From an uncultured Bacteroidales bacterium (GTDB lineage: Bacteria > Bacteroidota > Bacteroidia > Bacteroidales > VadinHA17): a stretch of 64,000 nucleotides of DNA. The notes beneath the pieces were generated by a model, which was not told where the DNA came from, searched no databases, and was given only the letters and a program-made list of their open reading frames with translations. The DNA lies in assembly GCA_963732435.1 (NCBI GenBank), contig CAVSZL010000018.1:24143-88142 (forward strand). Reading direction: 5' to 3'. The stretch's first letter is position 1. Every line of letters starts with the position of its first letter. The translations under genes were made by a program, and so were the position numbers. Of the stretch, positions 21,069 through 40,521 are shown piece after piece.

Positions 21069-22109
21069 ATGAAAACTTTGTATCAAACAATTATTTCAAT
21101 TGTTGGGATTCAACTCTTAACGACTATGGGAATATTTGCTCAAAATAGCATATCAGAACCATGGGAAAAATGGCTTAATGAGCGACAGCCATCAGACATT
21201 GTCTTTAAGACAATTGGTTTAAAAACTGGTATGACAATTGGTGAAATAGGTGCTGGTCGCGGCAGATATACTGTACTTCTCGCAAATGAAACAGGACCTA
21301 CAGGAAAAGTCATAGCTAATGATATAGATGAACCTTCACTCGCATACCTTAGAGGGCGATGCAGGAGATTGAACCTGAACAATGTAGAAACTATTGTTGG
21401 TGAAATGGACAATCCTTTATTCCCACATAATTCCCTTGATATGGCAATTATGGTTTTAGTTTACCATATGATTGAAAATCCGGATAATCTGTTGAAAAAT
21501 CTTAAAGGGAGTTTAAAACCGGGAGCTAAACTTGTGATTCTTGATCCGCGTGACGAAGAGATTGACAGGGAATTTGGAATAGACAGATCTAAATCCGGCT
21601 TAAAAATTCCAACTATAAAAGAACGTGTTCAAAAAAGCGCAAAAGCTGCAGGTTATGAACTAATTCAAGTTGACACTATCCTACCTCATGACTACATTTT
21701 TGTTCTTGAACCACAATCGAATGTTAATAAGAAATCAGCCATTGAGCTTATTCAAAAGACTTTGCTGCAGGACGGAATAGAAACCTCTAAAAAGCTGTTT
21801 AATACAATAAAAAATGATACAGCACAATATGATCTTTCTGAGAAAGTGTTCACAATCCTTGGAAATGAATTCCTTGGCGCAAAAAATTATCCTGAAGCAC
21901 TAGCAGTATTGAATATGGGTGCTGAATTATTTCCAAAATCCTCAAAATTATATGGTACAATCGGAGAAGTATATCTTCTTGTCGGAGATAAGGAAAAGGC
22001 AAGGACTTATTATAGACTTTTCCTTGAGAATGGCCCCGACAGCCTGAATGCCAGTACTATCATGCAAAATTTTGATGCAATGTATGAACAGATGCGTCAG
22101 CAAGATTAA
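21069..22109 (+). CDS. Class I SAM-dependent methyltransferase with C-terminal TPR
   Basis: GEIGAGRG motif I; VIANDID; C-terminal helices LGNEFL...EALAVL..GAELFP. Confidence 0.88.
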   Translation: MKTLYQTIISIVGIQLLTTMGIFAQNSISEPWEKWLNERQPSDIVFKTIGLKTGMTIGEIGAGRGRYTVLLANETGPTGKVIANDIDEPSLAYLRGRCRRLNLNNVETIVGEMDNPLFPHNSLDMAIMVLVYHMIENPDNLLKNLKGSLKPGAKLVILDPRDEEIDREFGIDRSKSGLKIPTIKERVQKSAKAAGYELIQVDTILPHDYIFVLEPQSNVNKKSAIELIQKTLLQDGIETSKKLFNTIKNDTAQYDLSEKVFTILGNEFLGAKNYPEALAVLNMGAELFPKSSKLYGTIGEVYLLVGDKEKARTYYRLFLENGPDSLNASTIMQNFDAMYEQMRQQD

Positions 22110-22123
22110 ATAAAAACCCTAAA

Positions 22124-22212
22124 CCTGACACGGACGGTGCTATGAAAAACTTCCCGTTTCACAGGACAATCAGTCCCGATTTATAGGGAGACTCCCGTTA
22201 AGTTAATGCCAT
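22124..22212 (+). repeat. Composite attC-like repeat, copy 1 of 4
   Basis: CCTGACACGGACGGTGCTATGAAAAACTTCCCG...TCCCGATTTATAGGGAGACTCCCGTTA; homologous to 36386, 37305, 39575. Confidence 0.85.
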
Positions 22213-22301
22213 CGGGCGCCAGCCACCATGACAAATTCATCTGGAAAATGGTCTAGCCATAACGGCTTTTTCAAGATTTCTGAAAATAATATGACAATTA
22301 G

Positions 22302-22332
22302 TTCCCGTTTTGGGAATTAAGTAATATCTTTG
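22302..22332 (+). promoter_or_regulatory. Candidate higBA promoter/operator
   Basis: Palindrome TTCCC-GTTTT-GGGAA (22302-22316) followed by Bacteroidota -7 box TATCTTTG (22325-22332), just before higB. Confidence 0.55.
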
Positions 22333-22346
22333 TTACAGATAACTAA

Positions 22347-22646
22347 TTGATGGAGCGGATTTTTGCGAAAAGTACTCTAAAACTGTTTTGGGAGAAACAC
22401 TCTGATACTGAACAGTACTTGAAAACATGGTATGACACGGCCATGAACTCAGACTGGGAAACTCCCAATGATGTTATGAAGTCTTATGCAAATGCAAGTA
22501 TTTTAAAAGACAGCAGGATTGTTTTTAACCTCAAAGGCAATTCCTACAGACTAGTAGCAAAATTCAACTTTGAAAAACAATGGACCTTCATAAGATTCCT
22601 TGGGTCTCATGCTGACTATGATAAAATTGATGCAAATACGATTTAA
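22347..22646 (+). CDS. higB: HigB-type toxin
   Basis: RIFAKSTLKLFWEKH...WY..A....WETP...NASIL...RIVFNLKGNSYRLVAKFNF...FIRFLGSHADYDKI. Confidence 0.9.
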   Translation: MMERIFAKSTLKLFWEKHSDTEQYLKTWYDTAMNSDWETPNDVMKSYANASILKDSRIVFNLKGNSYRLVAKFNFEKQWTFIRFLGSHADYDKIDANTI

Positions 22647-22657
22647 AAAGAAAAACA

Positions 22658-23026
22658 ATGAATATAAAACTGATCAAAACAGAAGCAGATTACCAGACAG
22701 CTCTCAAGAGACTTGAGGAAATCTTTGACGCCAGGATCGGTACAATTGAATGTGATGAGGCTGACATACTCGGATTATTTATTGATGAATATGAAAAGAA
22801 ACACTTCCAGATAGAAGCTCCGGATCCTATTGAGGCGATAAAGATCAGAATGGAGGAAATGCAGCTTAAACAGGTAGATCTTGCGGATGTTCTTGGTGGA
22901 AAAAACAGGGTTTCTGAGGTTCTTAATCGTAAACGTAAATTAACCGTTGAGATGATTCGTAAGCTTACAAAAAGACTAAACCTTTCACCTGGACTTTTAA
23001 TCCGGGACTATAAACTTGCCGTATAA
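22658..23026 (+). CDS. higA: HigA-type antitoxin (XRE HTH)
   Basis: IKTEADYQTAL...PDPIEAIKIRME...KQVDL...KNRVSEVLNRKRKLTVEMIR; follows toxin. Confidence 0.9.
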   Translation: MNIKLIKTEADYQTALKRLEEIFDARIGTIECDEADILGLFIDEYEKKHFQIEAPDPIEAIKIRMEEMQLKQVDLADVLGGKNRVSEVLNRKRKLTVEMIRKLTKRLNLSPGLLIRDYKLAV

Positions 23027-23059
23027 AACAGTCATATTGAACTGACAAACTGAACTCAT

Positions 23060-23126
23060 CCTGACAATCGGACGGTTGGGGAAATTTACTTTTACTCGCT
23101 CAACAACTGGGCCGTTATACATAATT
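23060..23126 (+). repeat. Short attC-like element
   Basis: CCTGACAATCGGACGG (same left end as the composite family) ... GCCGTTATACATAATT. Confidence 0.6.
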
Positions 23127-23158: not shown

Positions 23159-24076
23159 ATGAAAATAATATCAATTGCAACATTAGTATTCTGTTTCAGT
23201 TTGATTTATGAAGCAAAAGGACAGAGTGAATATCCTCCGCTTATTGTTGGAGCAGAGGAAATAACATATAAAACGGTTGACAAAATCAAATTGAATTTAT
23301 GGATCTTTACTCCGGAAAATCATAAATCAACGAATAATGCCCCTGCCATTATATTTTTCTTCGGAGGTGGTTGGAATACAGGAAGTCCTGCTCAATTTGT
23401 AAAACATTGCGAATACCTGTCAGCGAGGGGAATGGTTGCTATAGTTGCAGACTACCGGGTTAAGAGCAGGCATGGTGTCCCTGCCAGTATGTGTGTCTCT
23501 GATGCTAAATCAGCAATCCGTTGGGTTCGCGGGAATGCGTCTCAATTGGGTATAGATGGGAATAGAATTGCTGCAGGAGGTGGTTCTGCAGGAGGGCATT
23601 TAGCAGCATCATGTGCCACTTTGCCAAAATTCGACGATGAAAATGAAGACAAATCAATCAGTTCAAAACCCAATGCTCTGGTGCTTTTTAATCCTGCTCT
23701 GGTGCTTGCCCCTGTTGATAATCAAAAAATGGAAATAAATGAAAAAATGGCCGGTTTGGAAGAAAGACTGGGAACAAAACCAGAGAACATATCACCTTAT
23801 CATAATATAGTTGGCACATTGCCGCCAACAATTATTTTTCACGGAACAGGCGATGAAACCGTGCCATTTGTAACCGTACAATTGTTTACAAAAAGGATGC
23901 ATGAGTCCGGCAATAAATGTACATTGGTTGCTTACGGGGGAGAGCCACATGGTTTCTTTAATTACGGCAAAAACTCAAATGCAGTATTCTTTGATACTTT
24001 ACACAAAATGGATGAATTTCTGGTTTCACTGGGCTACCTTAAAGCACCACCGGAGATAGTCATTTCTACCAATTAA
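23159..24076 (+). CDS. Exported alpha/beta hydrolase (acetyl-esterase/lipase-like)
   Basis: FFGGGW oxyanion motif, GGSAGG nucleophile, HGTGD...V, HGFF catalytic His. Confidence 0.9.
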   Translation: MKIISIATLVFCFSLIYEAKGQSEYPPLIVGAEEITYKTVDKIKLNLWIFTPENHKSTNNAPAIIFFFGGGWNTGSPAQFVKHCEYLSARGMVAIVADYRVKSRHGVPASMCVSDAKSAIRWVRGNASQLGIDGNRIAAGGGSAGGHLAASCATLPKFDDENEDKSISSKPNALVLFNPALVLAPVDNQKMEINEKMAGLEERLGTKPENISPYHNIVGTLPPTIIFHGTGDETVPFVTVQLFTKRMHESGNKCTLVAYGGEPHGFFNYGKNSNAVFFDTLHKMDEFLVSLGYLKAPPEIVISTN

Positions 24077-24169
24077 AGTAAAATTACAATTCTGAATGAT
24101 ACAAGCGATTTGTTTCCAGGGGCATATCCGGATAAACGGCCTGCAACAAATAAAAATAATGACAATAGT

Positions 24170-24304
24170 ATGAAAAGAAGATCTTTTGTACAGACAGTTG
24201 GATTATCCTCAGTTATGATGCCACTGGCTTTCAGGAAACCTCTGTATAAAAATGAAGGCAGTTTTTTCACCGTTACGAAGGTTAAGGGACGATCTTTCCT
24301 ATAG
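24170..24304 (+). pseudogene. N-terminal remnant of a Tat-signal exported protein
   Basis: MKRRSFVQTVGLSSV twin-arginine leader then GSFFTVTKVKGRS, stop after 44 aa. Confidence 0.4.
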
Positions 24305-24381
24305 TTCAATTGTCGATTTTCTGAATTCGAAAAATATTGAGATAAAAGGTAACCAGTTTGAAATGATTAAAAAAATATAGT

Positions 24382-25494
24382 ATGAATAATTCAGGAAAAA
24401 GATTAATGTCGCATTTAAGAAAATACATGCTATTTTATGTGGTACTTTTTAGTACTGCTGTACCGGTCGGTTTTATTAATGCCCAAAATCCGGATAGTCC
24501 GCATCTGAAAAATCTTGCCATCAAACACAATCTGTTAATTGGTGGTGCAACTGATTTGAATCATAATGACAGCAATGAAGAGCAATTAATTATTAATGAA
24601 TTCAGTATATTATCCAATGAAAACTGTCTTAAACCGAATAAGACACAACCATCCCGGAATGTATTTGATTTCAGGCAGTCCGATTACTTTGTCGGTTTTT
24701 GTAAGAAAAATAATATTGTTGCAAAAGGACATAAATTAATCGCACGGGACTTCTACTTGCCGAAATGGATGCTTGACCCCGGCTTAACCGATAAAGAGCT
24801 TCACGATATTTTAGTGGATCATATTAAAAATGTTATGGGGCGATACAGGCAGGGAAGTGAATATGGTGAGATAAAATACTGGGATGTCCTTAATGAAGTG
24901 ATTTCCGACGCCAAAATATATGAAAGTGTTTTTAAGAGGTTAGGAAAAAACAGTGACGGTGATTATAACTATTGGGAATTAGCTTTTCGTACCGCACGCG
25001 CCGTTGATCCGAATTGTGTATTGATCTGGACTGAGGATAATATAGAGTTTGATTATCCAAAGGCGGATAAGCTTTATGAGACCATAAAACGATTAAAGAC
25101 AAAAGGCGTACCTATAGATGCGGTGGGCTTTCAGTGTCATATTGGCTTCCATGGACAACCCGTTCCGGATTTTACAAAACTGGCAGAATACTTCAGGAAA
25201 TTTGCAGATTTGGGGCTTTATATTGCCATCACAGAGCTGGATGTGTCTGAAAAACTAAATCAGGTTGAAATTTACAAAAATATGATGCAGGTATGCCTTG
25301 ATCAACCAAAATGTATAAGTTGGAGCACCTGGAATGTTGTTGATAAGTACAGCTGGCGCAGAAATTTAAAAGATGCAGAAACTCCTTTGCTGTTTGATGA
25401 TAATTACCAGCCGAAATCAACATATTTTGGAGTACAGGAAATACTAAGAAAACCAAACATCAATTCTAAAAACAGGATTTTACCACATTATTAA
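24382..25494 (+). CDS. GH10 endo-1,4-beta-xylanase
   Basis: ENCLKP, KGHKL, WDVLNE (acid/base Glu), DAVGFQCH, ITELD (nucleophile), PLLFD..YQPK. Confidence 0.92.
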   Translation: MNNSGKRLMSHLRKYMLFYVVLFSTAVPVGFINAQNPDSPHLKNLAIKHNLLIGGATDLNHNDSNEEQLIINEFSILSNENCLKPNKTQPSRNVFDFRQSDYFVGFCKKNNIVAKGHKLIARDFYLPKWMLDPGLTDKELHDILVDHIKNVMGRYRQGSEYGEIKYWDVLNEVISDAKIYESVFKRLGKNSDGDYNYWELAFRTARAVDPNCVLIWTEDNIEFDYPKADKLYETIKRLKTKGVPIDAVGFQCHIGFHGQPVPDFTKLAEYFRKFADLGLYIAITELDVSEKLNQVEIYKNMMQVCLDQPKCISWSTWNVVDKYSWRRNLKDAETPLLFDDNYQPKSTYFGVQEILRKPNINSKNRILPHY

Positions 25495-25509: not shown

Positions 25510-25650
25510 ACGGTTGCTAAAACACTGACATAAAACATTGGAGGTTAAGTTGTTATTTAAGCATTCTGTTACATATCAGGTTCGGTGTAACCGAAAGAGA
25601 ATGTAGCAAGTAATCCACATAGATTTAATGCAGCCAACCGTTACCGTATG
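25510..25650 (+). repeat. Degenerate attC-like element
   Basis: ACGGTTGCTAAAAC ... CCAACCGTTACCG flanking the intergenic space. Confidence 0.45.
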
Positions 25651-25682: not shown

Positions 25683-26168
25683 TTGATAAATATGGACTTT
25701 ACACATATAACAAGCGGAATTTTACTGGGATTAGAAAAATGGATGCCAAAGCTTTCTGAATTACCCGAAGATCTGATTATGAATAAACGTAACACTCAGG
25801 GCAGAACGATCAAACAGATACTTGGACACATGGTTGATTCTGCTTCAAATAATACTCATCGGATTGTTCACTTACAGTATCAGGATAGTCCGCTTAAATT
25901 TCCGAATTATGCTGCAAATGGAAATAATGACAGGTGGATTGCAATCCAAAATTACCAGAATGAGAACTGGAATGATTTAATTCAGCATTGGAAGTATAGC
26001 CATTTACATTGGATTCATATTGTAAAAAATGTAAATCAGAATAAATTAGATAATGAGTGGATTTCAGAATCGAAATATGGCAGTATTTCGCTTCAGGACA
26101 TGATTACCGATTTTTTAAGACATTTTCATTTACATCTCGGAGAAATTCAGGAATTAACTGACAAATAG
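25683..26168 (+). CDS. DinB/YfiT-family protein
   Basis: RTIKQILGHMVDSASNN..R; W......H; D...HFHLHLGEI metal-binding His. Confidence 0.88.
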   Translation: MINMDFTHITSGILLGLEKWMPKLSELPEDLIMNKRNTQGRTIKQILGHMVDSASNNTHRIVHLQYQDSPLKFPNYAANGNNDRWIAIQNYQNENWNDLIQHWKYSHLHWIHIVKNVNQNKLDNEWISESKYGSISLQDMITDFLRHFHLHLGEIQELTDK

Positions 26169-26180
26169 ATAAAAATGCAC

Positions 26181-26417
26181 AACTGAGCAACAAGGTATAT
26201 ACAATAAGGCGTGATAGTAGTAAATTAAAGGGGGGTGTCCCTTTCCATTCTCCATTCTCAATTCTCAATTCTTTATTCTTCTGCCAGCCAGGGACCGTTT
26301 CATGATTTTTGAACGAAAAGGGAGGAAAGTATTAAGCATACAAAAAGTCCACAATAGTATCCAAATAGGTAAATTTTGCGTACTTTTTGCCCACATATAA
26401 CAAGTTGTGTGGTATTT
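26181..26417 (+). repeat. Degenerate long attC-like element
   Basis: GCAACAAGGTATATACAATAAGGCG ... CACATATAACAAGTTGTGTGGTATT; internal heptamer tandem CCATTCT/CAATTCT. Confidence 0.45.
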
Positions 26418-26463
26418 AATGAAAAAATGGAATTATGCGAAACTTAAGAAAAAGGAACAACCT

Positions 26464-27972
26464 ATGAAATTGAAAATATTGCTTATTATTTTTTTCTCAT
26501 TAACAATTACTGATGGTATTGCACAGAGGGATTACTCTGATTCCGATACAACAAAGGTAATTTTGCTGGGAACGGGCAATCCAAATCCATCTCCATCTCA
26601 ATCGGGTTGTTCAGTTGCTATCGTTGTAAATGATACTCCCTATATTGTTGATTTTGGCCCGGGATTAATTCGTCAGGCTGCAGCTATGAGTCCGCAATAT
26701 GGAGGGAATGAACAAAAAATAATGATATTGCATACTCTAAAAAGAGTATTTCCTTATTAGTCTGCATAGCCTAGTAGCCTTATCTATAAGAGTAGCTTAT
26801 TATGCATCAAGTGGCAGTTTCAATGATCCTTTTATCCCAAAGCATTCCAAAAAAACAGTATCCTCTTATGTGTCATTTCTTGAAAAACAGCAAGATGCAA
26901 AAGACTACATCTTTAAATTATTTGAAATGAATGATTTCGTGATCTTGTGCGAGAAGAACATCCAGAAATGACACAATACGATTTCTTATTGATCTGATAT
27001 CAGATGAGAGATTTAGATAGAGGAATGTCTTAGATGTTAAAACATATTAAACATGCTTTTCTTACCCATTTACATTTTGGCTGACCATAACAACCGGTAT
27101 AAACTATCCGGACCTTATTTTTACTCCCTGGGTAATGGGAAGAGACAAACCTCTTGAAGTATATGGTCCTGTATAAATGATATGACAAACCATAACTGAA
27201 AGCCTACGAAGAAGATATTCGATACCGTTTATTGGAATCTGAACCAACTAAGTAATCAGGGATGGCGGGTAAACATCATGAAATTACAGGGAAAGAAAGG
27301 CGGAGTTAACAATTACAAAGATGAAAATATCTAAAGTCAGATCAAAAACGAAGAAAGCCTTGGTAATAAGAACTTCGGCACGGAACCTGGCGACAAAAAT
27401 AAAATTAGGAGATACCTCCTGTGCCACATATATTATGAGGAAATACCCAGAAAAAGCTGCCAACGTATTGATAAATACTGTTAAAGTAAGTTTTGGAATT
27501 TCAAAACCGGGATCACTAATTTTTCACCAGCCAAAAAACTCCAATAAAAAGTGGAATATGGGACAATTCATTTGAAAAAATAGGAAATAATGCATTGGGA
27601 TTCCGTTTTACAACAGTCCATTTGGTGACGATGATTTTGATTTATATTTTACCGGATAAAATTATTGTAATATCAGGTGATGCTTCACCTTCAGAAAAAA
27701 TTACTGAATACGCTTCAGGAGCAGATATTCTGATTCATGAAGTCTATTACAAAAAAGCCTTTGATACGAAAACTGAATTATGGAAGAACTACCACGCACG
27801 TCATCATACATCAACAATTGAACTGGCTGACATTGCTGACAAAGCACAACCTAAATTGGTCGTATTATATCACATATTATTCTGGGGAGCCACTGATGAA
27901 GATATGATTAACGAAATTTCGACAAAATATAAGGGAAAAGTTATTGTTGCGAAAGACTTAGATATATATTAA
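26464..27972 (+). pseudogene. Disrupted MBL-fold metallo-hydrolase (RNase Z/AtsA-like)
   Basis: N-term ILLGTGNPNP...VDFGPG (26464-~26707); middle HAFLTHLH..DH, PWVMGRDKPLEVYGP (~27030-27290); C-term ISGDASP..GADILIHEV..HHTS..LYH (to 27972). Pieces are separated by foreign stretches and many indels. Confidence 0.8.
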
Positions 27973-27999
27973 ATGAAACCGTATGAAGCAATAGCAAAA

Positions 28000-28140
28000 C
28001 ACCACTCAACACTTGGAATAGTCTAATCGGGTTTAAGGGTTTGCGGGCGTTAGTAACACCCAAATAAGCTGGAGTAAACTGATAAGAAATCACTTCGAAA
28101 TCCCGCACAACACAATACCATCAAACGTTGGTTGCTATTT
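28000..28140 (+). repeat. attC-like element
   Basis: CACTCAACA ... GCGGG ... CCCGC ... AAACGTTGGTTGCTATTT (CAAC/GTTG ends, internal arms). Confidence 0.6.
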
Positions 28141-28159
28141 TTAGGAACATTATAAATGA

Positions 28160-28420
28160 TTGAAAATGAAATATTGTATTGTAATTTTAATTGGTATAGC
28201 TTTTTCTTCCCAATCATTAATTTCTTTCGGACAGGAATTAGAAAAACTAAATCGCATCAAATCTGCCAGAAGCCTGGTAGCTCTTTGGGATTTTAGAGAA
28301 GAGGAAGGACAACCGAGAAAAGCATTTGGTAAAGGAGAATACCCTTTAAGTGAATCTGACGGTACAATTGTACGCATCAACGATGGACCCTTGTCAGGTT
28401 TTTCGGCAAAATATATGTAA
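28160..28420 (+). pseudogene. Truncated exported protein (possible LamG/jelly-roll N-terminus)
   Basis: Signal peptide then LVALWDFREEEG; ends at 86 aa. Confidence 0.4.
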
Positions 28421-28438
28421 TATTGAGTATTATTAAAC

Positions 28439-30823: not shown

Positions 30824-30861
30824 TGCTTGAAAAGCTTATGAATTAATTTATAAGCTGTAAC

Positions 30862-30937: not shown

Positions 30938-30976
30938 GTAAACAGACAACCCAATCAACAACATTTCATATAAGAA

Positions 30977-31673: not shown

Positions 31674-31688
31674 AAAAAAAGAAACGAC

Positions 31689-32015: not shown

Positions 32016-32225
32016 AAATGAATTAAATGACCTGAATATGGAACTCAAAAAAATAAATCAGTCTTTTGGTCGTGATTGAAGATCCTGCCAGATAGCAACA
32101 AGGAACCGTCCCGACAGCAATCAGGAGTTAAGATATATAGACCGCTTCAACTTTCGTGTAAATTGACAGGAAAGTGCACGCAGTAGGCTACAATTCTTTT
32201 ATTAACCGCTGACTGTAATGAAGAA

Positions 32226-33173: not shown

Positions 33174-33219
33174 ATTTAGTGCATTAAAACGCACCATAGC
33201 CAGACCGTTGTGTACAATT
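33158..33219 (+). repeat. Short attC-like element overlapping the upstream stop
   Basis: ...CAGACAGCAATAGATTTAGTGC-ATTAAAAC-GCACCATAGCCAGACCGTTGTGTACAATT. Confidence 0.65.
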
Positions 33220-33229
33220 AAATTGAGAA

Positions 33230-33736
33230 GTGGTGAATTTGGAAGAAGTAATTCAGGCAACCTGGGAAAAGGTTAAAAACATAGATGACAAAGGGCTTTT
33301 GGCATCTTATATTCCTGAGTTGGTTAACGTTGATTCAGAAAGTTTTGGAGTACATATATCAACAATTGACCACACAAATTTTGGTATTGGTAATTACAGG
33401 GAAAGATTTTCGGTTCAGAGTATTGCAAAAGTACTTTCACTAAGCCTGGCATATAGTTTGCTTGGCGAGAATATCTGGACAAGAGTTGGAGTAGAACCGT
33501 CCGGAACATCATTTAATTCTCTGGTTCAGCTTGAAGCAGATAAAGGCATACCCCGGAATCCCTTTATAAATGCCGGAGCAATGGTTATTTCAGACATTCT
33601 GCTTAGCAATCTGGAAAACCCAAAAGAAGAATTTTTATCATTTATCAGAAACATATCCAATAATCCGGAATTAAATTATTCAGGTAAAATAGCTGCCTCA
33701 GAAAAAAGCGTGGGATTTCGAAATGTGGCATGCTAA
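33230..33736 (+). pseudogene. glsA: Glutaminase, 3'-truncated
   Basis: ASYIPEL, FSVQSIAKV (S-x-x-K), VGVEPSG..FN, PRNPFINAGA; stops at 168 aa, about half a typical ~300-aa glutaminase. Confidence 0.85.
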
Positions 33737-33825
33737 AAAACCCACTTCGCAGATATATTTCCCTGTTGACACAGGGTTGACACTTTGATAAAATAAATTT
33801 GATAAATTATTTAAAACATAAAGCA

Positions 33826-34305
33826 ATGACTAAGCCAATCTTTATTTCGATTATTTTCCTTCTTTCATTTGGATTTATTAACCAATCAGAAGGTCAAACT
33901 CTTTCTGCAAGTCAATCAGGATTAATACAAAGTCAGGTAGACTCAATATTTCAAAAAATGTTACTCCTTGCCGAAAATCTTGAATTTGATAAATTAAGCT
34001 CAGGTGTTAATGATATACATGCAGCAGGATTCATTTCAAATGGCAAATATTATGCTTCTTATTCTGCTTTGATTGATGATGTGAAATCATTTGCACAGGG
34101 AATAAACAAGCAAAATATTTCTATAAAAGAAAAAAGAATTACCGTTTTATCCGATAAAATAGTTCTTTTGACAGCTTCAGGAACCTCAAAAGCTATTATA
34201 AATGATGGAAGAGAATTGTCGGTTGATTTTCATTGGTCCTTTATATATGAAAAAATTGATAATAGTTGGAAAGTTATATACTCCCATCAATCAACTACAA
34301 GGTAA
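33826..34305 (+). CDS. Exported NTF2-like (SnoaL/DUF4440) protein
   Basis: Signal peptide; C-terminal W.FIYEKIDNSWKVIYSHQS; start moved to MTKP. Confidence 0.8.
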   Translation: MTKPIFISIIFLLSFGFINQSEGQTLSASQSGLIQSQVDSIFQKMLLLAENLEFDKLSSGVNDIHAAGFISNGKYYASYSALIDDVKSFAQGINKQNISIKEKRITVLSDKIVLLTASGTSKAIINDGRELSVDFHWSFIYEKIDNSWKVIYSHQSTTR

Positions 34306-34372
34306 TCAGTTATTGGACACTCAATGAAATAGAAAATTGAATTAAAACATAAAAATAAAAGAAGGAAATTCC

Positions 34373-34870
34373 ATGCAGAAAAAGTCTTTAGTGGTAATTG
34401 ACATTCAGAATGACATTACCAAAAACTACAAAGAAATCATTGACAATGTTAATCGGTCAATAGATTGGGCAGTGGAAAATGAAATTCATGTCGTTTACAT
34501 AAGGCATTATAACTTATCTGACGGCACAAGGACTTTCAAACCTGATACTCGTGGGTCTGAATTAGTTTCGGACATGAAATTGGTTTCCAAAAACATTTTT
34601 GAAAAATCCAAAGGCAACGCATTGACCAGCGAAGATTTTGCTGACTTTATCAGGAAAAATGAAATAAGCGAATTTTATATTACAGGAGCAGACGCCATTG
34701 CCTGCGTGAAATCAACCGTATTTAATATGTGCAAGGAAAACTACAAAGTTACAGTCTTATCAGATTGTATTACGAGTTATGATAAAAGGAAAATTGACGA
34801 AATGCTGAATTATTACGAAAAAAATGGCAGTAAAATAATTAATTTGAATGACTTGTTACATTCTAAATAA
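34373..34870 (+). CDS. Cysteine hydrolase / isochorismatase family
   Basis: LVVIDIQND, FEKSKGNA, ITGADAIACVKST. Confidence 0.9.
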   Translation: MQKKSLVVIDIQNDITKNYKEIIDNVNRSIDWAVENEIHVVYIRHYNLSDGTRTFKPDTRGSELVSDMKLVSKNIFEKSKGNALTSEDFADFIRKNEISEFYITGADAIACVKSTVFNMCKENYKVTVLSDCITSYDKRKIDEMLNYYEKNGSKIINLNDLLHSK

Positions 34871-34968
34871 AAATGCCAGCGGCTGGCAAGCGGTATAGCC
34901 AATAAGGGTTTAGCTTCGCTGAGCTCGTCCTTCGTCCTCGGTTGCCTTCGGCGAGCTCATGTCGAAGC
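34871..34968 (+). repeat. attC-like left end followed by a REP-like hairpin
   Basis: AAATGCCAGCGGCTGGCAAGCGGTATAG then GCTTCG..GAGCTC...GAGCTC..CGAAGC palindrome (34913-34968). Confidence 0.55.
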
Positions 34969-35001
34969 CAGCGGGAACAATCCTTTGACTAGATTTACAA
35001 G

Positions 35002-36159
35002 ATGAAACTTACACGTTTATTTAACGAATTTTTTACCAGCGAGAAAGCCGGAGGATTTATCCTAATTTTCGCGACTATATTATCGCTAGGACTTGCAAAC
35101 TCACCCCTGCAGACTGATTTTATTAAGTTTTGGCATTTCGATCTTGGAGGACAAAGTATTGTTCACTGGATCAACGATGGACTCATGGCAATATTCTTTC
35201 TTCTTATTTGTTTGGAGTTAGAACGTGAAATTTATATTGGTGAGTTATCAAACATTAAAAATGCATCACTACCAATATTTTGTGCATTTGGTGGTATGCT
35301 AGTACCCGCCGGAATATTTTTATTATTTAACTATGGTACGGATACTCAAGCGGGAGCAGGTATCCCGATGGCAACAGACATTGCATTTGCCATTGGCATC
35401 TTATCTCTCCTCGGTAATCGTGTCCCTTCTTCATTAAAAATATTTTTAATTGCCTTGTCAATTATTGATGATTTGGGGGCAATACTAGTTATCGCAATTT
35501 TTTATTCATCTACATTGTCATTTCTAAACCTATTCATTGCCCTTGGTATTTTTGGAATCCTGCTTATTCTGAACAGACTTAAAGTTCACAATTTGATTCC
35601 TTATTTAATTGGTGGTGTAGTAATGTGGTATTTTATGCAACATTCAGGTATTCACGCTACTACAACCGGAGTATTGCTGGCTTTCGCAGTTCCATTTAGT
35701 GATGGGAGCGAAAAATCGCCCTCATTTATTCTTCAACATCTATTACACAAACCTGTTGCATTCTTTATCCTGCCACTGTTTGCCCTCGCTAATACATGCA
35801 TACCCATTGACAATAATTTACATAGTATTATGACTCAAACATATAGTTTGGGAATTATTATTGGTCTGGTTCTTGGAAAACCCCTGGGAATTTGGCTCTT
35901 CTCATTTATTGCAGTCGGTTTGGGAATATCTGTATTACCTCCTGATTTAAAATGGAAAAACATAATCGGGACTGGAATATTAGGAGGAATCGGATTCACA
36001 ATGTCAATCTTTATTACACTACTTGCATTTGACGATCCAACAATTGTAAATTATTCAAAAATTGCTATCCTTCTTGCTTCTCTTATTGCTGGTACAGTTG
36101 GATTTATATGGCTAAAACTGACACTAAAGCCAGAAATAAGAGATGACGAATTACCTTGA
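35002..36159 (+). CDS. nhaA: Na+/H+ antiporter NhaA
   Basis: WINDGLMAIFF, IPMATDIAFA, SIIDDLGAI, SGIHAT, GIGFTMSIFI. Confidence 0.95.
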   Translation: MKLTRLFNEFFTSEKAGGFILIFATILSLGLANSPLQTDFIKFWHFDLGGQSIVHWINDGLMAIFFLLICLELEREIYIGELSNIKNASLPIFCAFGGMLVPAGIFLLFNYGTDTQAGAGIPMATDIAFAIGILSLLGNRVPSSLKIFLIALSIIDDLGAILVIAIFYSSTLSFLNLFIALGIFGILLILNRLKVHNLIPYLIGGVVMWYFMQHSGIHATTTGVLLAFAVPFSDGSEKSPSFILQHLLHKPVAFFILPLFALANTCIPIDNNLHSIMTQTYSLGIIIGLVLGKPLGIWLFSFIAVGLGISVLPPDLKWKNIIGTGILGGIGFTMSIFITLLAFDDPTIVNYSKIAILLASLIAGTVGFIWLKLTLKPEIRDDELP

Positions 36160-36366: not shown

Positions 36367-36385
36367 TACAAATAACAAAACTCAA

Positions 36386-36471
36386 CATAACACTGATGGT
36401 GCTATGAAAGACTTCCCGTCTTACGGGACAAGTAGTCCCGATTTATCGGAAGACTCCCGTTAGTCGCCATC
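36386..36471 (+). repeat. Composite attC-like repeat, copy 2 of 4
   Basis: CATAACACTGATGGTGCTATGAAAGACTTCCCGTCTTACGGGAC...TCCCGATTTATCGGAAGACTCCCGTTAGT. Confidence 0.85.
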
Positions 36472-36505
36472 TATCGTGCTCCCGAACAAATTAGTACAAC
36501 TCTAT

Positions 36506-37309
36506 ATGAATAAAAACTACCGGTTTCAAAATATCGTCCGATCGAGAATAGCAACCTTTGACATCTTTGATGTTGGTTTGCGCAAACATCATATAAATGC
36601 AATGCTTGAATTCGATGTCACAGAAAGCAGGGCAAAACTGCGAGACCTTAGAAAAAAAGGGACAGTTGTTTCATTTAATGCATGGCTTATCAAGGTTATC
36701 GGAAGTGTCCTGCAAAAACATCCGGAAGCAGCAGCATATTTCTACAACAAAAAAAGGCTCATAATCTTCAATGACATCAACGTTTCAATGATAGTAGAAA
36801 AGAAAATAGGAGATTCAAAAGTTCCGATCCCGCTCGTCATTGAAAGAACAAATGAAAAATCTGCTGAAGAAATAACTAAGGAAATAGAAAGTGCTAAAAG
36901 TCAGCAATTAAATCCTGATGACATTGTATTAAAAAAACAATCAAACACATATCAAAGATTTTATTACCACCTGCCGGGATTCCTCAGAAGACTTTTCTGG
37001 ATCTTACTGCTGAAAAATCCGAAAGCAGCTTACAAAACAATGGGGAATGTAGCAATAACTTCAATCGGGATGATTGGCAAAATTAATGGTTGGTTTATTC
37101 ACAAATCAGTTCATCCTGTTTCCTTTGGCATTGGATCCATCCTTAAAAAGCCTGTAGTCATTGACAATGAAATAAAGATCAGAGAGATTTTAAACATGAC
37201 CATTCTGGTTGACCATGATGTAATAGATGGTGCACAAATGGTTAGATTACTGGATGACCTGACAAACTACCTGGAAACCGGAAAAGATATAAATAACACG
37301 AATGCCTGA
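36506..37309 (+). CDS. Stand-alone 2-oxo-acid dehydrogenase E2 catalytic-domain protein
   Basis: SFNAWLIK, GNVAITSIG, DHDVIDGAQ (cf. DHRxxDG); no lipoyl domain; stop TGA inside the next repeat. Confidence 0.85.
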   Translation: MNKNYRFQNIVRSRIATFDIFDVGLRKHHINAMLEFDVTESRAKLRDLRKKGTVVSFNAWLIKVIGSVLQKHPEAAAYFYNKKRLIIFNDINVSMIVEKKIGDSKVPIPLVIERTNEKSAEEITKEIESAKSQQLNPDDIVLKKQSNTYQRFYYHLPGFLRRLFWILLLKNPKAAYKTMGNVAITSIGMIGKINGWFIHKSVHPVSFGIGSILKKPVVIDNEIKIREILNMTILVDHDVIDGAQMVRLLDDLTNYLETGKDINNTNA

Positions 37310-37409
37310 CACGGATGGTGCTATGAAAAACTCATCGTCTTATGGGACTACTTGTCCCGTGAAACGGGAAGTTGTTCCAATCTATCGGGAGACTCCCGTT
37401 AGAAATAAT
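37305..37409 (+). repeat. Composite attC-like repeat, copy 3 of 4
   Basis: GCCTGACACGGATGGTGCTATGAAAAACT...TCCCGTGAAACGGGA...TCCAATCTATCGGGAGACTCCCGTTAG. Confidence 0.85.
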
Positions 37410-37501: not shown

Positions 37502-38833
37502 ATGGAAACAAGAAAGTTAAACAGGCGTGATTTCGTGACTAAATCATCGATCGGTTTAGTCGGTGTTGGGGCAGGACTTATTAGTAATGAACCAATTAAT
37601 CAGAATTCTTATCTTAAAAACATCCAGGAACAAACCAGAATAAAAGAATATAGAGCACTGGGGCGAACAGGTTTTAAAGTTTCGGATATTGGGTGTGGTA
37701 CAATAAGCATTTCCAATGAAAATGTTTTAAAATCAATTCTGACAGCAGGAGTAAATTTTATTGATACAGCTGATGCTTATAGTAATGGGAATAATGAAAT
37801 AATGGTTGGAAGAGCCATTAAAGACTTCAATAGGAGTTCTTTATTTATTAACACAAAAATATCTGTCTCGGAAAGTGACACCAAAGATAGTATTGTATTA
37901 CGGGCAAGAAAGTGTCTGGAAAGACTAGATACTGACTATCTGGATGGACTGATGCTCTGGAATGTTAAGTCGGTAAATGAGACTAAGAATAAAGCTTTTC
38001 ATCAGGCTGTTAAACAATTGAAAAGTGAGGGCCGGGTTAAATTTTGCGGTGTTTCATGCCACGGATCAAATTATGTCGATGAGCCAAAAGAAACCATGGA
38101 CAAGATAATCGGCACAGCAGCTGAGAGTGGTCGATTTGATTTAGTGATGTTTGTATATAATTATGTTCAACAGAAGATGGGTGAAAATATTCTGAAGGCG
38201 TGCGCAAAAAAGAATATTGGTACTACACTCATGAAGACAGATCCCTTTGGAGGATATTTCTTGAATATTGTAGAACTTGTTAACAATTCTAAAAGGGATA
38301 ATAAAACTATACCTGAGAATCAGCAGAAAGTATATGATAAGATTTTAAAAAAACAGGCAGAAGCAAAACCTTTTTTGCAAAAATACGGCTATTCAAACAA
38401 TGATACCTTTAGAGAGGCAGCTATTGGTTTTGGATTAAATAATCAATCTGTGAATTCTGTCCTTATAACATTCAGGAATTTCAATGATGTAAATGATTAT
38501 ATTAATTTGTCGGGGTCCAGACTGACGGAGCAAAATCTATCCATGATTGATTCTTTAAAAAATACATTCGGGAGTTTATATTGCCGCCATGCGTGTGGAC
38601 AATGTGAAAATCTTTGCCCCCATGCTGTGCCAATAAACACAATTATGAGATATAACCATTATTTTATGGCACAATCCCGCGAGAAATATTCTATCAAAAA
38701 ATATTTAAAATTATCTGGAGAAAAAGCTGACAAATGCTCAGATTGCGAGGGATTCTGTGAGCAGGCATGTCCGCATAATGTATCAATACAAGCTCTTTTA
38801 TCCATTGCTCACCAAAATTTAAGTCTTTCATAG
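37502..38833 (+). CDS. Aldo/keto reductase with Tat leader and C-terminal 4Fe-4S domain
   Basis: LNRRDFV leader; RALGRTGFKVSDIG, FIDTADAY; CRHACGQCENLCP and CSDCEGFCEQACP. Confidence 0.9.
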   Translation: METRKLNRRDFVTKSSIGLVGVGAGLISNEPINQNSYLKNIQEQTRIKEYRALGRTGFKVSDIGCGTISISNENVLKSILTAGVNFIDTADAYSNGNNEIMVGRAIKDFNRSSLFINTKISVSESDTKDSIVLRARKCLERLDTDYLDGLMLWNVKSVNETKNKAFHQAVKQLKSEGRVKFCGVSCHGSNYVDEPKETMDKIIGTAAESGRFDLVMFVYNYVQQKMGENILKACAKKNIGTTLMKTDPFGGYFLNIVELVNNSKRDNKTIPENQQKVYDKILKKQAEAKPFLQKYGYSNNDTFREAAIGFGLNNQSVNSVLITFRNFNDVNDYINLSGSRLTEQNLSMIDSLKNTFGSLYCRHACGQCENLCPHAVPINTIMRYNHYFMAQSREKYSIKKYLKLSGEKADKCSDCEGFCEQACPHNVSIQALLSIAHQNLSLS

Positions 38834-39007
38834 GTAATTGGAATTATTATAAGAGTATATCCTTACGATTGTATATGCAATTAGTAAATATATTGTGACT
38901 GAATACAAACTTTTATTTCATCAATTTTTTGACACCGGACTGTAACCTGACATCATTAAATAAATTTCCTGATTTAACTGTTGTATACAAAACTAAATTT
39001 GTCAATT

Positions 39008-39511
39008 ATGAAAAAATTTCTGGTTATTCTATTTACAATTGCAATCGTTGGTTGTACCAATCAGGCAAACGATTTGACTGAAGCAGAAAAAGAATCCATT
39101 ATCAAAGAAGTTAAACAGGACTTTTATGCTATGGTGGAGGCATGCAATACTGCAGATCTTAACAATGCCCTCAAACTTTATTGGAACTCGCCGGAATTCC
39201 TGGGGATTGGATCTGACGGATCAATAGTTGATTACCCGCAATTTAAAAAGGCTAACGAAGAATATTTTGGATCGATTTCTTCTCAGAAATTTGTTACTGT
39301 AAAAGAGAGTTTCAAATTTCTTGATGTCAATCATATTCTTTCATCATGGCAAGGAACAAATGAGGCGATACTAAAATCTGGAGAAAAAATGACCTTTAGT
39401 TCTTTTGGAGTCACTAGCATATTCAAAAAAGTTGATGGCAGTTGGAAAATAATCTATTTTCATGAGTCTGGAATTCCTCCAACAGTGACTAATTCCGAAG
39501 CAGACAATTAG
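39008..39511 (+). CDS. NTF2-like (SnoaL/DUF4440) lipoprotein
   Basis: Lipobox IVGC; FKKVDGSWKIIYFHES. Confidence 0.8.
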   Translation: MKKFLVILFTIAIVGCTNQANDLTEAEKESIIKEVKQDFYAMVEACNTADLNNALKLYWNSPEFLGIGSDGSIVDYPQFKKANEEYFGSISSQKFVTVKESFKFLDVNHILSSWQGTNEAILKSGEKMTFSSFGVTSIFKKVDGSWKIIYFHESGIPPTVTNSEADN

Positions 39512-39574
39512 TTGAATTCACTCTTTACACCAGGAATATTACTGACTATTAAGAAATAATAAAATACACCTAAT

Positions 39575-39680
39575 CCTGACATGAACGGGGCAATGAAAAA
39601 CTTCCCATCTTACGGGTCTACTTGTCCCGTGAAACGGGAAGTTGTTCCGATTTATCGGGAGACTCACATTATCAGTAATT
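39575..39680 (+). repeat. Composite attC-like repeat, copy 4 of 4
   Basis: CCTGACATGAACGGGGCAATGAAAAACTTCCCATCTTACGGG...TCCCGTGAAACGGGA...TCCGATTTATCGGGAGACTC. Confidence 0.8.
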
Positions 39681-39732
39681 TTAGAGAATAGTCAGTATAT
39701 TTAAGAATTAAATGGAAAAATAAAATAAGAAG

Positions 39733-40521
39733 ATGAAGCAGAAAATTTATCAGGTAGATGCATTTACTGACAAGGTTTTTTCGGGTAATCCGGCAGCAGT
39801 TTGTCCACTTGACCAATGGTTGAGTGATGATATTATGCAAAAGATAGCTAATGAAAACAACCTTTCTGAAACAGCATTTTATGTTAAGCAGGATAATCAA
39901 TATCTAATAAGGTGGTTTACTCCTTCAGTTGAAGTTGACCTCTGCGGACACGCCACTTTGGCGTCAGCTTATGTTTTATTCAATTACGAAAACCATAATG
40001 AAAATATAATCAATTTTTATTCTCATCGAAGCGGAGCATTAAGTGTAACCAAAAAACATGATTTACTTACACTAAATTTCCCTGCTGATATATATAAAGA
40101 AACAGAATTGACAGAGGAAATAACCAAATGTTTTAATATTAAACCAAAATCAGCATTTAAGGGAAAGACAGACATCATGCTTGTTTTTGACAATGAGGAA
40201 GATATCAGGAATACAATTCCGAAGTTTGAATTGATTTCTGAATTAAAAGTGCGTGGAATTATTATCACAGCCAAAGGCAAAGATGTTGATTTCGTTTCCA
40301 GATTTTTTGGTCCTCAATCAGGTGTTAATGAAGATCCGGTAACAGGTTCGGCTCATACAACATTAACTCCGTATTGGGCAAAACAACTTGGCAAAACAGA
40401 GTTAAAAGCAATACAACTTTCAGAACGGATGGGATATTTGAAGTGTACTTATCTGAATGACAGAGTGGAAATTAGTGGTCAGGGAAAATTGTATTTAACC
40501 GGCGAAATATTCATTGAATAG
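39733..40521 (+). CDS. PhzF-family epimerase/isomerase
   Basis: VDAFT...GNPAAV, NLSETAF, RWFTP..EVDLCGHATLAS, EDPVTGSAH. Confidence 0.95.
   Translation: MKQKIYQVDAFTDKVFSGNPAAVCPLDQWLSDDIMQKIANENNLSETAFYVKQDNQYLIRWFTPSVEVDLCGHATLASAYVLFNYENHNENIINFYSHRSGALSVTKKHDLLTLNFPADIYKETELTEEITKCFNIKPKSAFKGKTDIMLVFDNEEDIRNTIPKFELISELKVRGIIITAKGKDVDFVSRFFGPQSGVNEDPVTGSAHTTLTPYWAKQLGKTELKAIQLSERMGYLKCTYLNDRVEISGQGKLYLTGEIFIE

What the first reader, a model, noticed from the sequence alone, without database searches (positions are those of the whole stretch)
21069..40521. Integron-like cassette array with attC-like palindromes, no integrase in view
Seen: about 20 functionally unrelated genes lie on one strand for 19.5 kb (methyltransferase, HigBA, esterase, xylanase, DinB, sulfatase, ABM, NhaA, AKR, PhzF and others). 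At least 11 spacers carry imperfect palindromes with ends of the form (C/G)CT(A/G)AC or CAAC on the left and CGTTA or CGTTG on the right: 22124, 23060, 25510, 26181, 28000, 30862, 31538, 33158, 36386, 37305, 39575. Two stop codons (31544, 37307) fall inside the left core, and a third (33171) falls just inside the element. Established: integron attC sites have R''=RYYYAAC and R'=GTTRRRY, often overlap the cassette stop codon, and superintegrons accumulate TA cassettes such as higBA. Inference: this is a gene-capture array of a kind not well characterised in Bacteroidota, probably mobilised by a tyrosine recombinase encoded elsewhere, and now partly decayed.
Basis: partly seen in the sequence, partly recalled or inferred. 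Interest (0 to 1): 0.85.

Follow-up and report, generated by a model that had tools for sequence, protein, structure and literature searches.

The report
Orphan integron-like gene-cassette array, Bacteroidales
This 19.5-kb run of unrelated same-strand genes is most likely a worn, recombinase-less cassette array of the integron-like platform of Bacteroidales (rAID-1 type), whose Xer/IntI-related recombinase lacks the domain that defines integron integrases.

Summary
The co-directional run of about 20 unrelated genes is real. It is absent from the matching locus of a same-genus genome.

Of the 11 claimed attC-like spacers:
- Four are one true repeat family (R1; 22115, 36377, 37296, 39566).
- 23060 shares both cores with elements of a larger array on another contig.
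- 25518-25650 is present or absent between strains.
- The other five rest on short motifs that chance explains. None folds as a canonical attC.

No IntI exists in this genome or in 41 genomes of the genus. A 510-aa Xer/IntI-related recombinase on another contig lacks the IntI insertion. In dozens of Bacteroidales MAGs its orthologues sit just upstream of arrays with the same core ends (…TAAC-ACGGAC … CCGTTAG). Contigs break just downstream of the gene.

Window 20746-20915 is a second copy of the conserved leader found upstream of that recombinase, here without the gene. Metagenome contigs show a strain lacking the HigBA module between two cores. They also show two genes (higBA, isochorismatase) far more abundant than their neighbours.

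The closest known systems are rAID-1 clusters (Ross et al. 2019) and integrons/CALINs.

The parts
20746..20915 (+). X': recombinase-less copy of the conserved leader that precedes the array recombinase elsewhere. It has GAAAGTYRG...TGTGACTGACGGGGCGG cores followed by a G-rich GGTGTGAGG repeat.
   Evidence: It is 73% identical over 160 nt to C12:411531-411688, which ends 38 nt before the 510-aa recombinase gene. These are the only two copies in the genome. The same element lies upstream of the recombinase in at least 18 other loci.
20926..20945 (+). Possible right-core remnant (AAATAAGGTCGTTGTTTTAC) between X' and the first gene.
   Evidence: Read from the sequence. It resembles the recombinase-proximal site end ...CTATAAACGAGTTA. 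This is inference only.
21069..22109 (+). Gene 1: SAM methyltransferase with TPR tail.
   Evidence: Pfam. A metagenome contig at 98% identity joins this gene through 22141 directly to 23111.
22115..22206 (+). R1a element: left core CCTGACACGGACGGTGCTATG, right core GACTCCCGTTAAG.
   Evidence: 100 bits.
22347..23026 (+). higB-higA module; strain-variable and over-abundant.
   Evidence: Pfam. It is 75-83% identical to copies in four other genomes, one of them flanked by canonical ~127-nt attC sites. Depth in run X1 is ~65 against ~5 for the neighbours, and the module is absent from an X2 contig.
23060..23119 (+). Element b: CCTGACAATCGGACGGTTGGGG...CAACTGGGCCGTTATAC.
   Evidence: Both cores match elements of C14 and C12 (ACACGGACGGTTGGGGTAATAA...GGCCGTTAGAT). 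Its right core is the right edge of the HigBA indel. It has no significant fold.
23159..25494 (+). BD-FAE esterase (23159-24076), a gene remnant, and GH10 xylanase (24382-25494).
   Evidence: Pfam.
25518..25650 (+). 130-nt gene-less element (AAAACACTGAC...CCAACCGTTACCGTATG), present or absent between strains and flanked by AAAACAC direct repeats.
   Evidence: X2 contigs join 25517>25651 and 25524>25654.
25683..34305 (+). DinB_2, split gene remnants (26407-27972), sulfatase, 189-aa membrane protein, ABM, 315-aa unknown, truncated glutaminase, SnoaL. The spacers here show no verified element.
   Evidence: Pfam. No repeat or model hits. Folds are not better than shuffles.
34322..34883 (+). Isochorismatase gene module, recently mobile.
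   Evidence: It is 97%, 96% and 89% identical to copies in three genomes, one from another family, each with different flanks. Depth is 75-360 against 2-20 for the neighbours in four metagenomes.
34875..34974 (.). MITE-like palindromic insertion bounded by the 8-bp direct repeat GCCAGCGG.
   Evidence: Copies occur in five other genomes.
35002..36159 (+). NhaA antiporter; probably an older resident of the locus.
   Evidence: In same-genus genome G008, PhzF and NhaA follow the orthologous efflux operon directly.
36377..36468 (+). R1b element.
   Evidence: 101 bits.
36476..37309 (+). 2-oxoacid_dh-family acyltransferase. Its stop codon lies inside the left core of R1c.
   Evidence: Pfam. Homologues in five relatives all end ...ACGAAYGYCTGAC / GCATAAC and then diverge.
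37296..37407 (+). R1c element (long form with an inner palindrome).
   Evidence: 89 bits.
37502..39511 (+). AKR-Fer4 oxidoreductase and SnoaL-like protein.
   Evidence: Pfam. One weak metagenome joint, 37287>39558, removes exactly this R1c-to-R1d unit (side only 24 nt).
39566..39677 (+). R1d element.
   Evidence: 84 bits.
39733..40521 (+). PhzF-family gene; last gene of the run and probably an older resident.
   Evidence: Pfam. G008 synteny.

Best explanation
Window 20746-40521 is a secondary, recombinase-less and partly decayed cassette array of the integron-like platform common in Bacteroidales.

The intact platform, as shown in other loci:
- a conserved leader (X);
- a ~500-aa Xer/IntI-related tyrosine recombinase transcribed towards the array;
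- a proximal site (...ACATAACAC...AAACGAGTTA);
- co-directional genes, each followed by an imperfect inverted-repeat element. The element starts YTAAC/CTGAC-ACGGAC and ends (G/C)CCGTTA(G/T), and is 60 to 410 nt long.

Inferred mechanism: the recombinase, acting in trans from the copy on contig C12, inserted, excised or exchanged single-gene modules at these cores. This filled the gap between an efflux operon and the older PhzF/NhaA genes.

Inferred present state: the local recombinase gene is missing, several genes are broken, and most sites have lost their pairing. The array is now largely frozen and changes mainly by deletion and small-element insertion.
For: Locus history and gene mobility:
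- The array is absent from the orthologous locus of G008, where the efflux MFP gene is followed directly by PhzF and NhaA.
- The array genes are scattered across relatives.
- higBA and isochorismatase recur at 75-97% identity in arrays of other genomes, with different flanks.
- Both are 10-100 times deeper than their neighbours in metagenomes.
- An X2 contig lacks everything between the left core of R1a and the right core of element b.

Elements:
- R1 has 6 full copies per genome, 4 of them here, all gene-then-element. It was found in none of 340 other genomes.
- The left-core motif clusters on C14, with 8 copies on one strand, and occurs at the C12 and C6 contig ends.

Recombinase link:
- Downstream of the recombinase in 24 loci, left cores are 27(+):2(-) and right cores 38:8. 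Upstream they are 6:8 and 18:9.
- The median contig remainder is 1.9 kb downstream against 10 kb upstream.
- Regular arrays follow the recombinase in G018 and L096.
- Dozens of order-wide homologues lie 100-300 nt from a contig end.
- Cognate element ends pair better than non-cognate ends: -13.4 against -8.8 kcal/mol, with 0 of 20000 random draws reaching the cognate sum.
- X' in the window is homologous to the leader of the recombinase gene.
- No IntI is found in 41 genus genomes.
Against: - No recombination event was observed directly.
- The window's own elements (R1, 23060) show no cognate end pairing and no significant fold.
- Five of the 11 claimed sites are unsupported.
- The HigBA joint (22141|23111) and the ends of gene-linked homology fall just after the left core or 2-5 nt before GTT. 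They do not fall at one consistent crossover point.
- Two small elements carry direct repeats at their ends, as transposition or slippage would give.
- The genome is a 19-contig MAG, so the recombinase contig (C12) and the window contig (C18) are linked only by binning.
- PhzF and NhaA are in reversed order relative to G008, which simple insertion does not explain.
Confidence: 0.6

Rival explanations
1. This is an ordinary plasticity zone. Unrelated genes accumulated by generic horizontal transfer and illegitimate recombination. R1 and the other spacer elements are small non-autonomous repeats (MITE/REP-like) or 3' structural elements, with no site-specific cassette recombination at this locus.
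For: - Two spacer elements have terminal direct repeats: GCCAGCGG at 34875/34967, and AAAACAC at 25518/25651.
- The window elements fold no better than shuffles and lack cognate end pairing.
- The motif enrichment in the array is modest: R+ 5 against 1.3 expected, and 4(+) against 3(-) motif pairs.
- The indel boundaries are not at one fixed position.
Against: - This reading does not explain the X' leader copy.
- It does not explain the identity of the core ends with arrays behind the recombinase.
- It does not explain the strict gene-then-element orientation.
- It does not explain the sharing of single genes with other cassette arrays.
Confidence: 0.25
2. This is a canonical CALIN: the cassettes were delivered by a true integron integrase (IntI) that has since been lost or is unassembled, and the sites are degraded ordinary attC sites.
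For: - True IntI genes exist in 5 of 301 genomes of the order, all at contig ends, next to a classical 57-nt attC.
- The higBA and isochorismatase homologues in G025 and G027 are flanked by canonical 125-140-nt attC sites.
- Contig C14 holds at least one canonical-looking 60-nt site.
Against: - No IntI is found in this genome or in any of 41 genomes of the genus, although the arrays are common there.
- The window sites fail the canonical fold test.
- The R-to-L spacers are 7-10 nt rather than 5.
- The arrays sit behind the non-IntI recombinase with strong strand bias.
Confidence: 0.1
3. R1 elements are transcription terminators or 3'-UTR regulatory RNAs, and the gene run is a set of independently regulated genes.
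For: The elements always follow a co-oriented gene and contain short GC hairpins.
Against: - There are no T-runs after the hairpins.
- There is no Rfam match.
- Only 6 copies exist per genome and none in 340 relatives.
- This reading does not explain the variable gene content.
Confidence: 0.05

Closest known systems
rAID-1 (recombinase-associated acquired interbacterial defence) clusters of Bacteroidales; Ross et al. 2019, bioRxiv 10.1101/471110 (published in Nature 2019)
   Same: [quoted passage not shown] - rAID-1 is present in about half of Bacteroidales genomes: 226/423 in the paper. Here the recombinase family is in 122/301 genomes and 104/208 genera of the order.
   Different: - The window array has no adjacent recombinase, only its leader.
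- The cargo is metabolic or hydrolytic genes plus a toxin-antitoxin pair, not recognisable orphan immunity genes.
- The host is an environmental MAG.
- GC content is not clearly skewed.
- Identity of this recombinase to BF9343_RS08045 could not be measured here.
- The paper did not define the site architecture or the crossover point.
Integrons, especially sedentary chromosomal integrons and CALINs (Cury et al. 2016, PMC4889954; Néron et al. 2022, PMC9024848)
   Same: - Same-strand arrays of unrelated small genes, including toxin-antitoxin cassettes.
- After each gene there is an imperfect inverted repeat bounded by ..AAC and GTT...
- The recombinase belongs to the Xer/IntI clade: 32-34% identical to true IntI, with a shared C-terminal VRSP(I/L)(D/E) motif.
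- Assemblies break at the array.
- Cassettes are shared with true attC arrays.
   Different: - The recombinase lacks the IntI-specific extra domain (ALER region).
- It carries a ~235-aa N-terminal extension with no Pfam match.
- It is transcribed towards the array.
- The sites have 7-10-nt R-L spacers and reach 300-410 nt.
- The window sites do not fold as attC.
XerC/D-dependent pdif modules of Acinetobacter plasmids (from my own knowledge, not tested)
   Same: Xer-type recombination sites bracket single-gene or toxin-antitoxin modules that move between replicons.
   Different: - pdif sites are 28-bp duplex sites in alternating orientation.
- They are served by the housekeeping XerCD.
- They have no dedicated recombinase and no long co-directional chromosomal array.

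Membership tests
Integron (IntI/attI/attC) | An integron integrase with the IntI-specific additional domain around patch III (Messier & Roy 2001, cited in PMC9668308). | tested here: not met
   - TIGR02249 is below its cut-off in the own genome: best 188 bits against 265.
- It is also below cut-off in all 41 genus genomes.
- The positive control worked: 5 of 301 order genomes exceed the cut-off.
- PF00589 spans 160 aa in the array recombinase against 201 aa in a true IntI, and the alignment shows the missing segments.
Integron (IntI/attI/attC) | attC sites with R''=RYYYAAC and R'=GTTRRRY, paired R and L boxes, ~5-nt unpaired spacers and extrahelical bases. | tested here: not met
   - My constrained-fold scan recovers attC sites of G025, G027 and G096, with dG from -11 to -29 kcal/mol.
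- No window spacer passes at the claimed ends; 4/19 pass anywhere against a 6.3% background.
- The left cores are mostly CTGAC, not AAC.
- The R-L spacers are 9-10 nt.
- IntegronFinder's own model was not available.
Integron (IntI/attI/attC) | Cassette boundaries at G|TT of R', with the attC travelling with the upstream gene. | tested here: not met
   - Homology of the isochorismatase copies ends at or just after the left core, and the element beyond it differs in each genome.
- The acyltransferase homologues behave the same way.
- The HigBA indel joins 22141 to 23111, which is not G|TT.
- The examples are few.
CALIN (cluster of attC sites lacking an integrase) | At least two attC sites called by the IntegronFinder covariance model, with no intI within 4 kb. 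| not testable with these tools
   IntegronFinder and HattCI are not installed. My proxy test is negative for the window.
rAID-1 cluster | A 5' XerD-like recombinase at least 44% identical to BF9343_RS08045. | not testable with these tools
   - The reference sequence is not held here.
- The family's order-wide prevalence (122/301 genomes) and the naming of its members as XerD fit.
- The window itself has no recombinase, only the leader X'.
rAID-1 cluster | Two or more co-directional downstream genes with repetitive intergenic sequences. | tested here: met
   About 20 co-directional genes lie in the array, with four R1 copies and related cores. The same holds behind the recombinase in G018 and L096.
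rAID-1 cluster | Low or skewed GC (41% or less) relative to the recombinase, and orphan immunity-gene content. | tested here: inconclusive
   - Array GC is 34-38%, against 33-42% in the flanks. The sulfatase gene is 42-47%.
- No immunity family is recognised by Pfam.
- Immunity-specific profiles were not searched.

The most novel reading that the evidence does not exclude
The rAID-1-type recombinase family of Bacteroidales may run a second class of integron that does not depend on the IntI-specific domain.
- It would be a general gene-capture platform, not only an immunity-gene store.
- It would be present in about half of the genera of the order.
- Its folded attC-like sites are 60-410 nt long, and their cognate ends co-vary.
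- A conserved leader (X) with inverted GTYRG/CTGAC cores and a proximal attI-like site would flank the recombinase gene.
- Orphan arrays such as this one would keep the leader after losing the gene and could be serviced in trans.
Probability: 0.45. Interest if true: 0.85.

Novelty: new variant of a known kind. Interest (0 to 1): 0.66.

Why it matters
Integrons are held to be nearly absent from Bacteroidota, and IntI's extra domain is held to be essential for cassette recombination. This locus and its relatives suggest a widespread parallel platform. Until now it has been noticed only as rAID-1 immunity clusters in gut species.

The platform would capture ordinary metabolic, hydrolytic and toxin-antitoxin genes in environmental Bacteroidales, using a recombinase without that domain. 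If so:
- standard integron finders would miss a large share of cassette-borne gene flow in sediments, sludge and soils;
- MAG assemblies would systematically break at, and lose, these arrays;
- the determinants of folded-site recombination could be compared across two independent solutions.

For this window alone the value is smaller. It is a decayed, orphan example, useful mainly for the leader-without-recombinase arrangement and the strain-level HigBA indel.

Tried and rejected
- Rfam scan of 20000-42000 at E up to 1: no hits.
- Covariance model R1 against 300 order genomes and 40 genus genomes: no copies outside this genome, so R1 itself is species-private.
- Generic constrained-fold attC scans, in two versions: weak or no separation of the array from background.
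- Strict end-motif pairs: as frequent on the wrong strand.
- Reading the conserved ATG in R1 as a small ORF: rejected. The frame and stop are not conserved, and the 20-nt insertion in copies c and d is not a multiple of three.
- Searching for the window's efflux genes next to recombinases of other genomes, to show an ancestral platform at this locus: none found. L096 has an RND operon beside its recombinase, but it is only 24-37% identical at the protein level, so it is not orthologous.
- Reading the HigBA joint as a duplex core-site exchange with a 6-bp overlap: the two junction spacers differ (GGTGCT against AACTGG), so rejected.
- N-terminal domain of the recombinase: no Pfam family even at E=1. 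Structure prediction was not attempted.
Full report
**1. What is in the window**

From 21069 to 40521 there are about 20 ORFs, all on the + strand. Their Pfam assignments are unrelated:
- methyltransferase-TPR, HigB plus an HTH antitoxin, BD-FAE esterase, GH10, DinB_2;
- a 794-aa sulfatase, ABM, a glutaminase truncated to 168 aa, two SnoaL-like proteins;
- isochorismatase, NhaA, a 2-oxoacid_dh-type acyltransferase, AKR-Fer4 and PhzF.

Several stretches are gene remnants (24110-24304, 26407-27972, 28160-28420, 36170-36365). Upstream lies an RND efflux operon: an AcrB-OEP fusion at 15111-19451 and an MFP at 19462-20577. Downstream the genes turn to the - strand. The window is C18:24143-88142 of a 19-contig, 92%-complete MAG of an uncultured Bacteroidales.

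**2. The claimed palindromes**

One real repeat family, R1, has four copies at 22115, 36377, 37296 and 39566.
- The left ~30 nt (CCTGACACGGAYGGTGCTATGAAAAAC) and the right ~30 nt (CCCGATTTATCGGGAGACTCCCGTTAG) are conserved.
- The centre is variable and partly palindromic.
- A covariance model finds only these four copies in the window.
- Elsewhere in the genome it finds two full copies (C8:280541, C9:184986) and a few fragments. Every copy lies just after a co-oriented gene.
- It finds nothing in 300 genomes of the order or 40 of the genus.

The other seven spacers do not match R1 and have no BLAST-level repeats. Five of the seven spacers fold no better than shuffled sequence; 30862 is the exception among these and holds only a plain hairpin.

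So the motif by itself carries little information.

**3. Test against true attC sites**

True integron integrases (TIGR02249 above its cut-off) occur in 5 of 301 genomes of the same order. All are at contig ends, and there is a conserved attI-like stretch ending ...ATATGTT.
- One (G096) is followed by a textbook 57-nt attC.
- Arrays in G025 and G027 carry 125-140-nt canonical sites.

A constrained-fold scan (AAC paired to GTT, DNA parameters) recovers these controls with dG from -11 to -29 kcal/mol and the expected R box / short loop / L stem shape.

Applied to the window and to 1198 control gene-downstream regions, it passes 4/19 array spacers against 6.3% of controls at dG of -5 or lower. 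None of the passes is at the claimed ends. Strict membership as attC is therefore not met.

**4. The array is not ancestral and its genes move singly**

BLASTN of the array against 30 relatives gives only scattered single-gene matches.

In same-genus genome G008, the orthologous efflux operon (75% nucleotide identity) is followed directly by PhzF, a small gene and NhaA, with 40-70-nt spacers. So about 17 kb has been added in this lineage around two older residents.

The isochorismatase module (34322-34883) is 97% identical to a copy in a genome of another family, and 96% and 89% identical to copies in two same-genus genomes. Each copy has different flanks and each lies in a same-strand run of small genes. 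In G027 the copy is followed by a canonical ~125-nt attC. The window copy is followed by a MITE-like insertion with an 8-bp direct repeat, and then directly by NhaA.

higBA is 75-83% identical to copies in four genomes. In G025 it is a cassette between two canonical attC sites.

In four metagenomes, the isochorismatase gene has a depth of 75-360 against 2-20 for its neighbours. higBA has ~65 against ~5 in run X1.

**5. Strain-level variation at the cores**

- A 1114-nt contig of run X2, 98% identical over the methyltransferase gene, runs to 22141 and continues at 23111. It reads ...CCTGACACGGACGGTGCT|GCCGTTATAC.... This strain therefore lacks the rest of R1a, higBA and most of element b.
- X2 contigs also lack 25518-25650, a gene-less element with a CACTGAC left end and a CCGTTACC right end, flanked by AAAACAC.
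- A weak X1 joint (side 24 nt) removes exactly the R1c-to-R1d unit.

So gains and losses do map to the elements, though not to a single G|TT point.

**6. The wider family and its recombinase**

The left-core motif CCTAAACATAACACGGAC(R)(R)T, allowing up to 5 substitutions, clusters on contig C14. There are eight copies between 83.7 and 124 kb, all on one strand. It also occurs near the ends of C12 and C6.

C14 is a large same-strand array. Its elements share this architecture:

R''(YTAAC) - ~7-9 nt (ACGGACRRT) - L'' ... L' - ~8-9 nt GC-rich - R'(GTTAK)

The array includes a canonical-looking 60-nt site and ~290-nt sites. The window's 23060 element matches the C14 type at both ends.

The genome's best IntI-like protein is a 510-aa tyrosine recombinase at C12:411726-413258.
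- It has SAM_4 and Phage_integrase domains and the full catalytic set.
- It is 32-34% identical to true IntI and shares the C-terminal VRSP(I/L)(D/E) motif.
- It lacks the IntI-specific segments and adds ~235 N-terminal residues with no Pfam match.
- Its best NCBIfam hits are XerA_Arch (214 bits against a cut-off of 220) and integron integrase (188 against 265).

Orthologues at 53-64% identity occur in 13 of 41 genus genomes and in 36 loci of GTDB representatives, almost all labelled Bacteroidales/Bacteroidia or Rikenellaceae MAGs. There are more than 120 clusters in metagenomes, named only 'XerD'.

In 24 loci, the DNA downstream of the gene carries left cores 27(+):2(-) and right cores 38:8 in 94 kb. 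The 214 kb upstream carries 6:8 and 18:9. Contigs end a median of 1.9 kb downstream but run the full 10 kb upstream.

Just after the gene there is a conserved site, AAAACATAACACTATC...(~45)...CTACTCCTATAAACGAGTTA. One contig ends at ...AAACGA.

G018 and L096 show regular arrays behind the recombinase. Their 300-410-nt elements read TATAACACGGACGGTTTAATTAATTGCC ... CTAATTAAACCGCCGGGCCGTTAGC.

Across 14 elements from eight sub-families (5 of them R1), cognate left and right ends pair better than non-cognate ends. The means are -13.4 against -8.8 kcal/mol, and 0 of 20000 random assignments reach the cognate sum. This is the signature expected of folded recombination sites. The window's R1 and 23060 elements do not show it, which fits decay.

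No canonical IntI exists in any of 41 genus genomes. The recombinase family at E of 1e-50 or lower is found in 122 of 301 genomes and 104 of 208 genera of the order. In dozens of these its 3' end lies 100-300 nt from a contig end.

**7. The link to the window**

Window 20746-20915, directly upstream of the first array gene, is 73% identical to C12:411531-411688, the stretch that ends 38 nt before the recombinase start. These are the only two copies in the genome.

The same element, X, has the form GAAAGTYRG ... TATGTGACTGACGGGGCGG followed by a G-rich microsatellite. It lies upstream of the recombinase in at least 18 other loci.

In the window, X' is followed by GGTGTGAGG repeats, a CGTTG core and then the array, with no recombinase. 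This is either a platform that lost its gene or a duplicated leader.

**8. Mechanism**

Shown:
- the anatomy of the platform;
- its association with the recombinase and the strand bias of the cores;
- co-variation of element ends in intact arrays;
- single-gene mobility;
- one strain-level indel at the cores.

Inferred:
- the recombinase catalyses cassette insertion and excision at the cores;
- it can act in trans on the window array;
- the window array is now mostly inert.

Unexplained:
- gene-linked homology ends just after the left core rather than at the right core;
- two small elements carry terminal direct repeats;
- the PhzF/NhaA order differs from G008.

**9. Comparison with what is known**

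Ross et al. (bioRxiv 10.1101/471110) described rAID-1 clusters in 226 of 423 Bacteroidales genomes. [quoted passage not shown] That is the closest known system, and very probably the same platform.

Its sites, crossover point and non-immunity cargo were not characterised. Néron et al. 2022 found only In0 and a single complete integron in Bacteroidetes. Ghaly et al. 2022 restate that IntI is defined by the additional domain.

Earlier notes of this scan, read after my own analysis, reach the same reading in other genomes. They are not independent evidence.

**10. Verdict**

- The locus is a new variant (orphan, decayed, metabolic cargo, leader without recombinase) of a known but mechanistically unexplored kind.

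Noticed in passing
window 34875-34974: A ~92-nt palindromic element is bounded by the 8-bp direct repeat GCCAGCGG and inserted 5 nt after the isochorismatase stop. Copies at 86-94% identity occur in G004, G012, G025, G028 and G030. It looks like a MITE with a target-site duplication.
   Followed up: partly
window 15111-19451: A single 1446-aa ORF fuses a complete AcrB-type RND transporter (residues 5-1035) to an outer-membrane efflux protein (OEP) domain. The same fusion is present in G008 (L028 3821-8161).
   Followed up: no
window 28062-28130: An intergenic stretch between the gene remnants and the sulfatase is 75-86% identical to intergenic stretches in G004, G022, G028 and G029. This is a second dispersed spacer element of unknown nature.
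   Followed up: no
window 26407-27972: Two short ORFs and the ~830 nt between them match one continuous region of G007 (L034 9820-10735). A single gene has been broken up here.
   Followed up: partly
L060, L067, L078, L088, L059 (just after the recombinase stop); window 20903-20918: Long G-rich or T-rich 7-9-nt microsatellites (CAGGCTT, GGTTTCA, GGTGTGAGG, GGATTTC) directly follow the recombinase stop codon in several MAGs. Similar G-rich repeats end the leader X. They could cause slippage-prone regulation or assembly breakpoints.
   Followed up: no
G000 C14 (rc 1-46 kb), L096 12000-15600, L052 10864-11236: The long array elements contain many copies of a short motif, (T)ACCG(N)GAC / GTACCGCGA(C/T), between their paired ends. 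R1's inner ACGGGAC/GTCCCGT palindromes resemble it. These may be binding sites for an accessory protein.
   Followed up: no
window 36476-37309 and homologues in L026, L027, L031, L036: All homologues of the acyltransferase gene end with ...ACGAAYGYCTGAC or GCATAAC. The stop codon is embedded in a left-core-like heptamer whatever follows, so the core travels with the gene.
   Followed up: partly
L096 11524-11997: The recombinase gene in this MAG is followed by a 157-aa duplicate of its own C-terminal third before the proximal site. This is a partial tandem duplication at the array junction.
   Followed up: no
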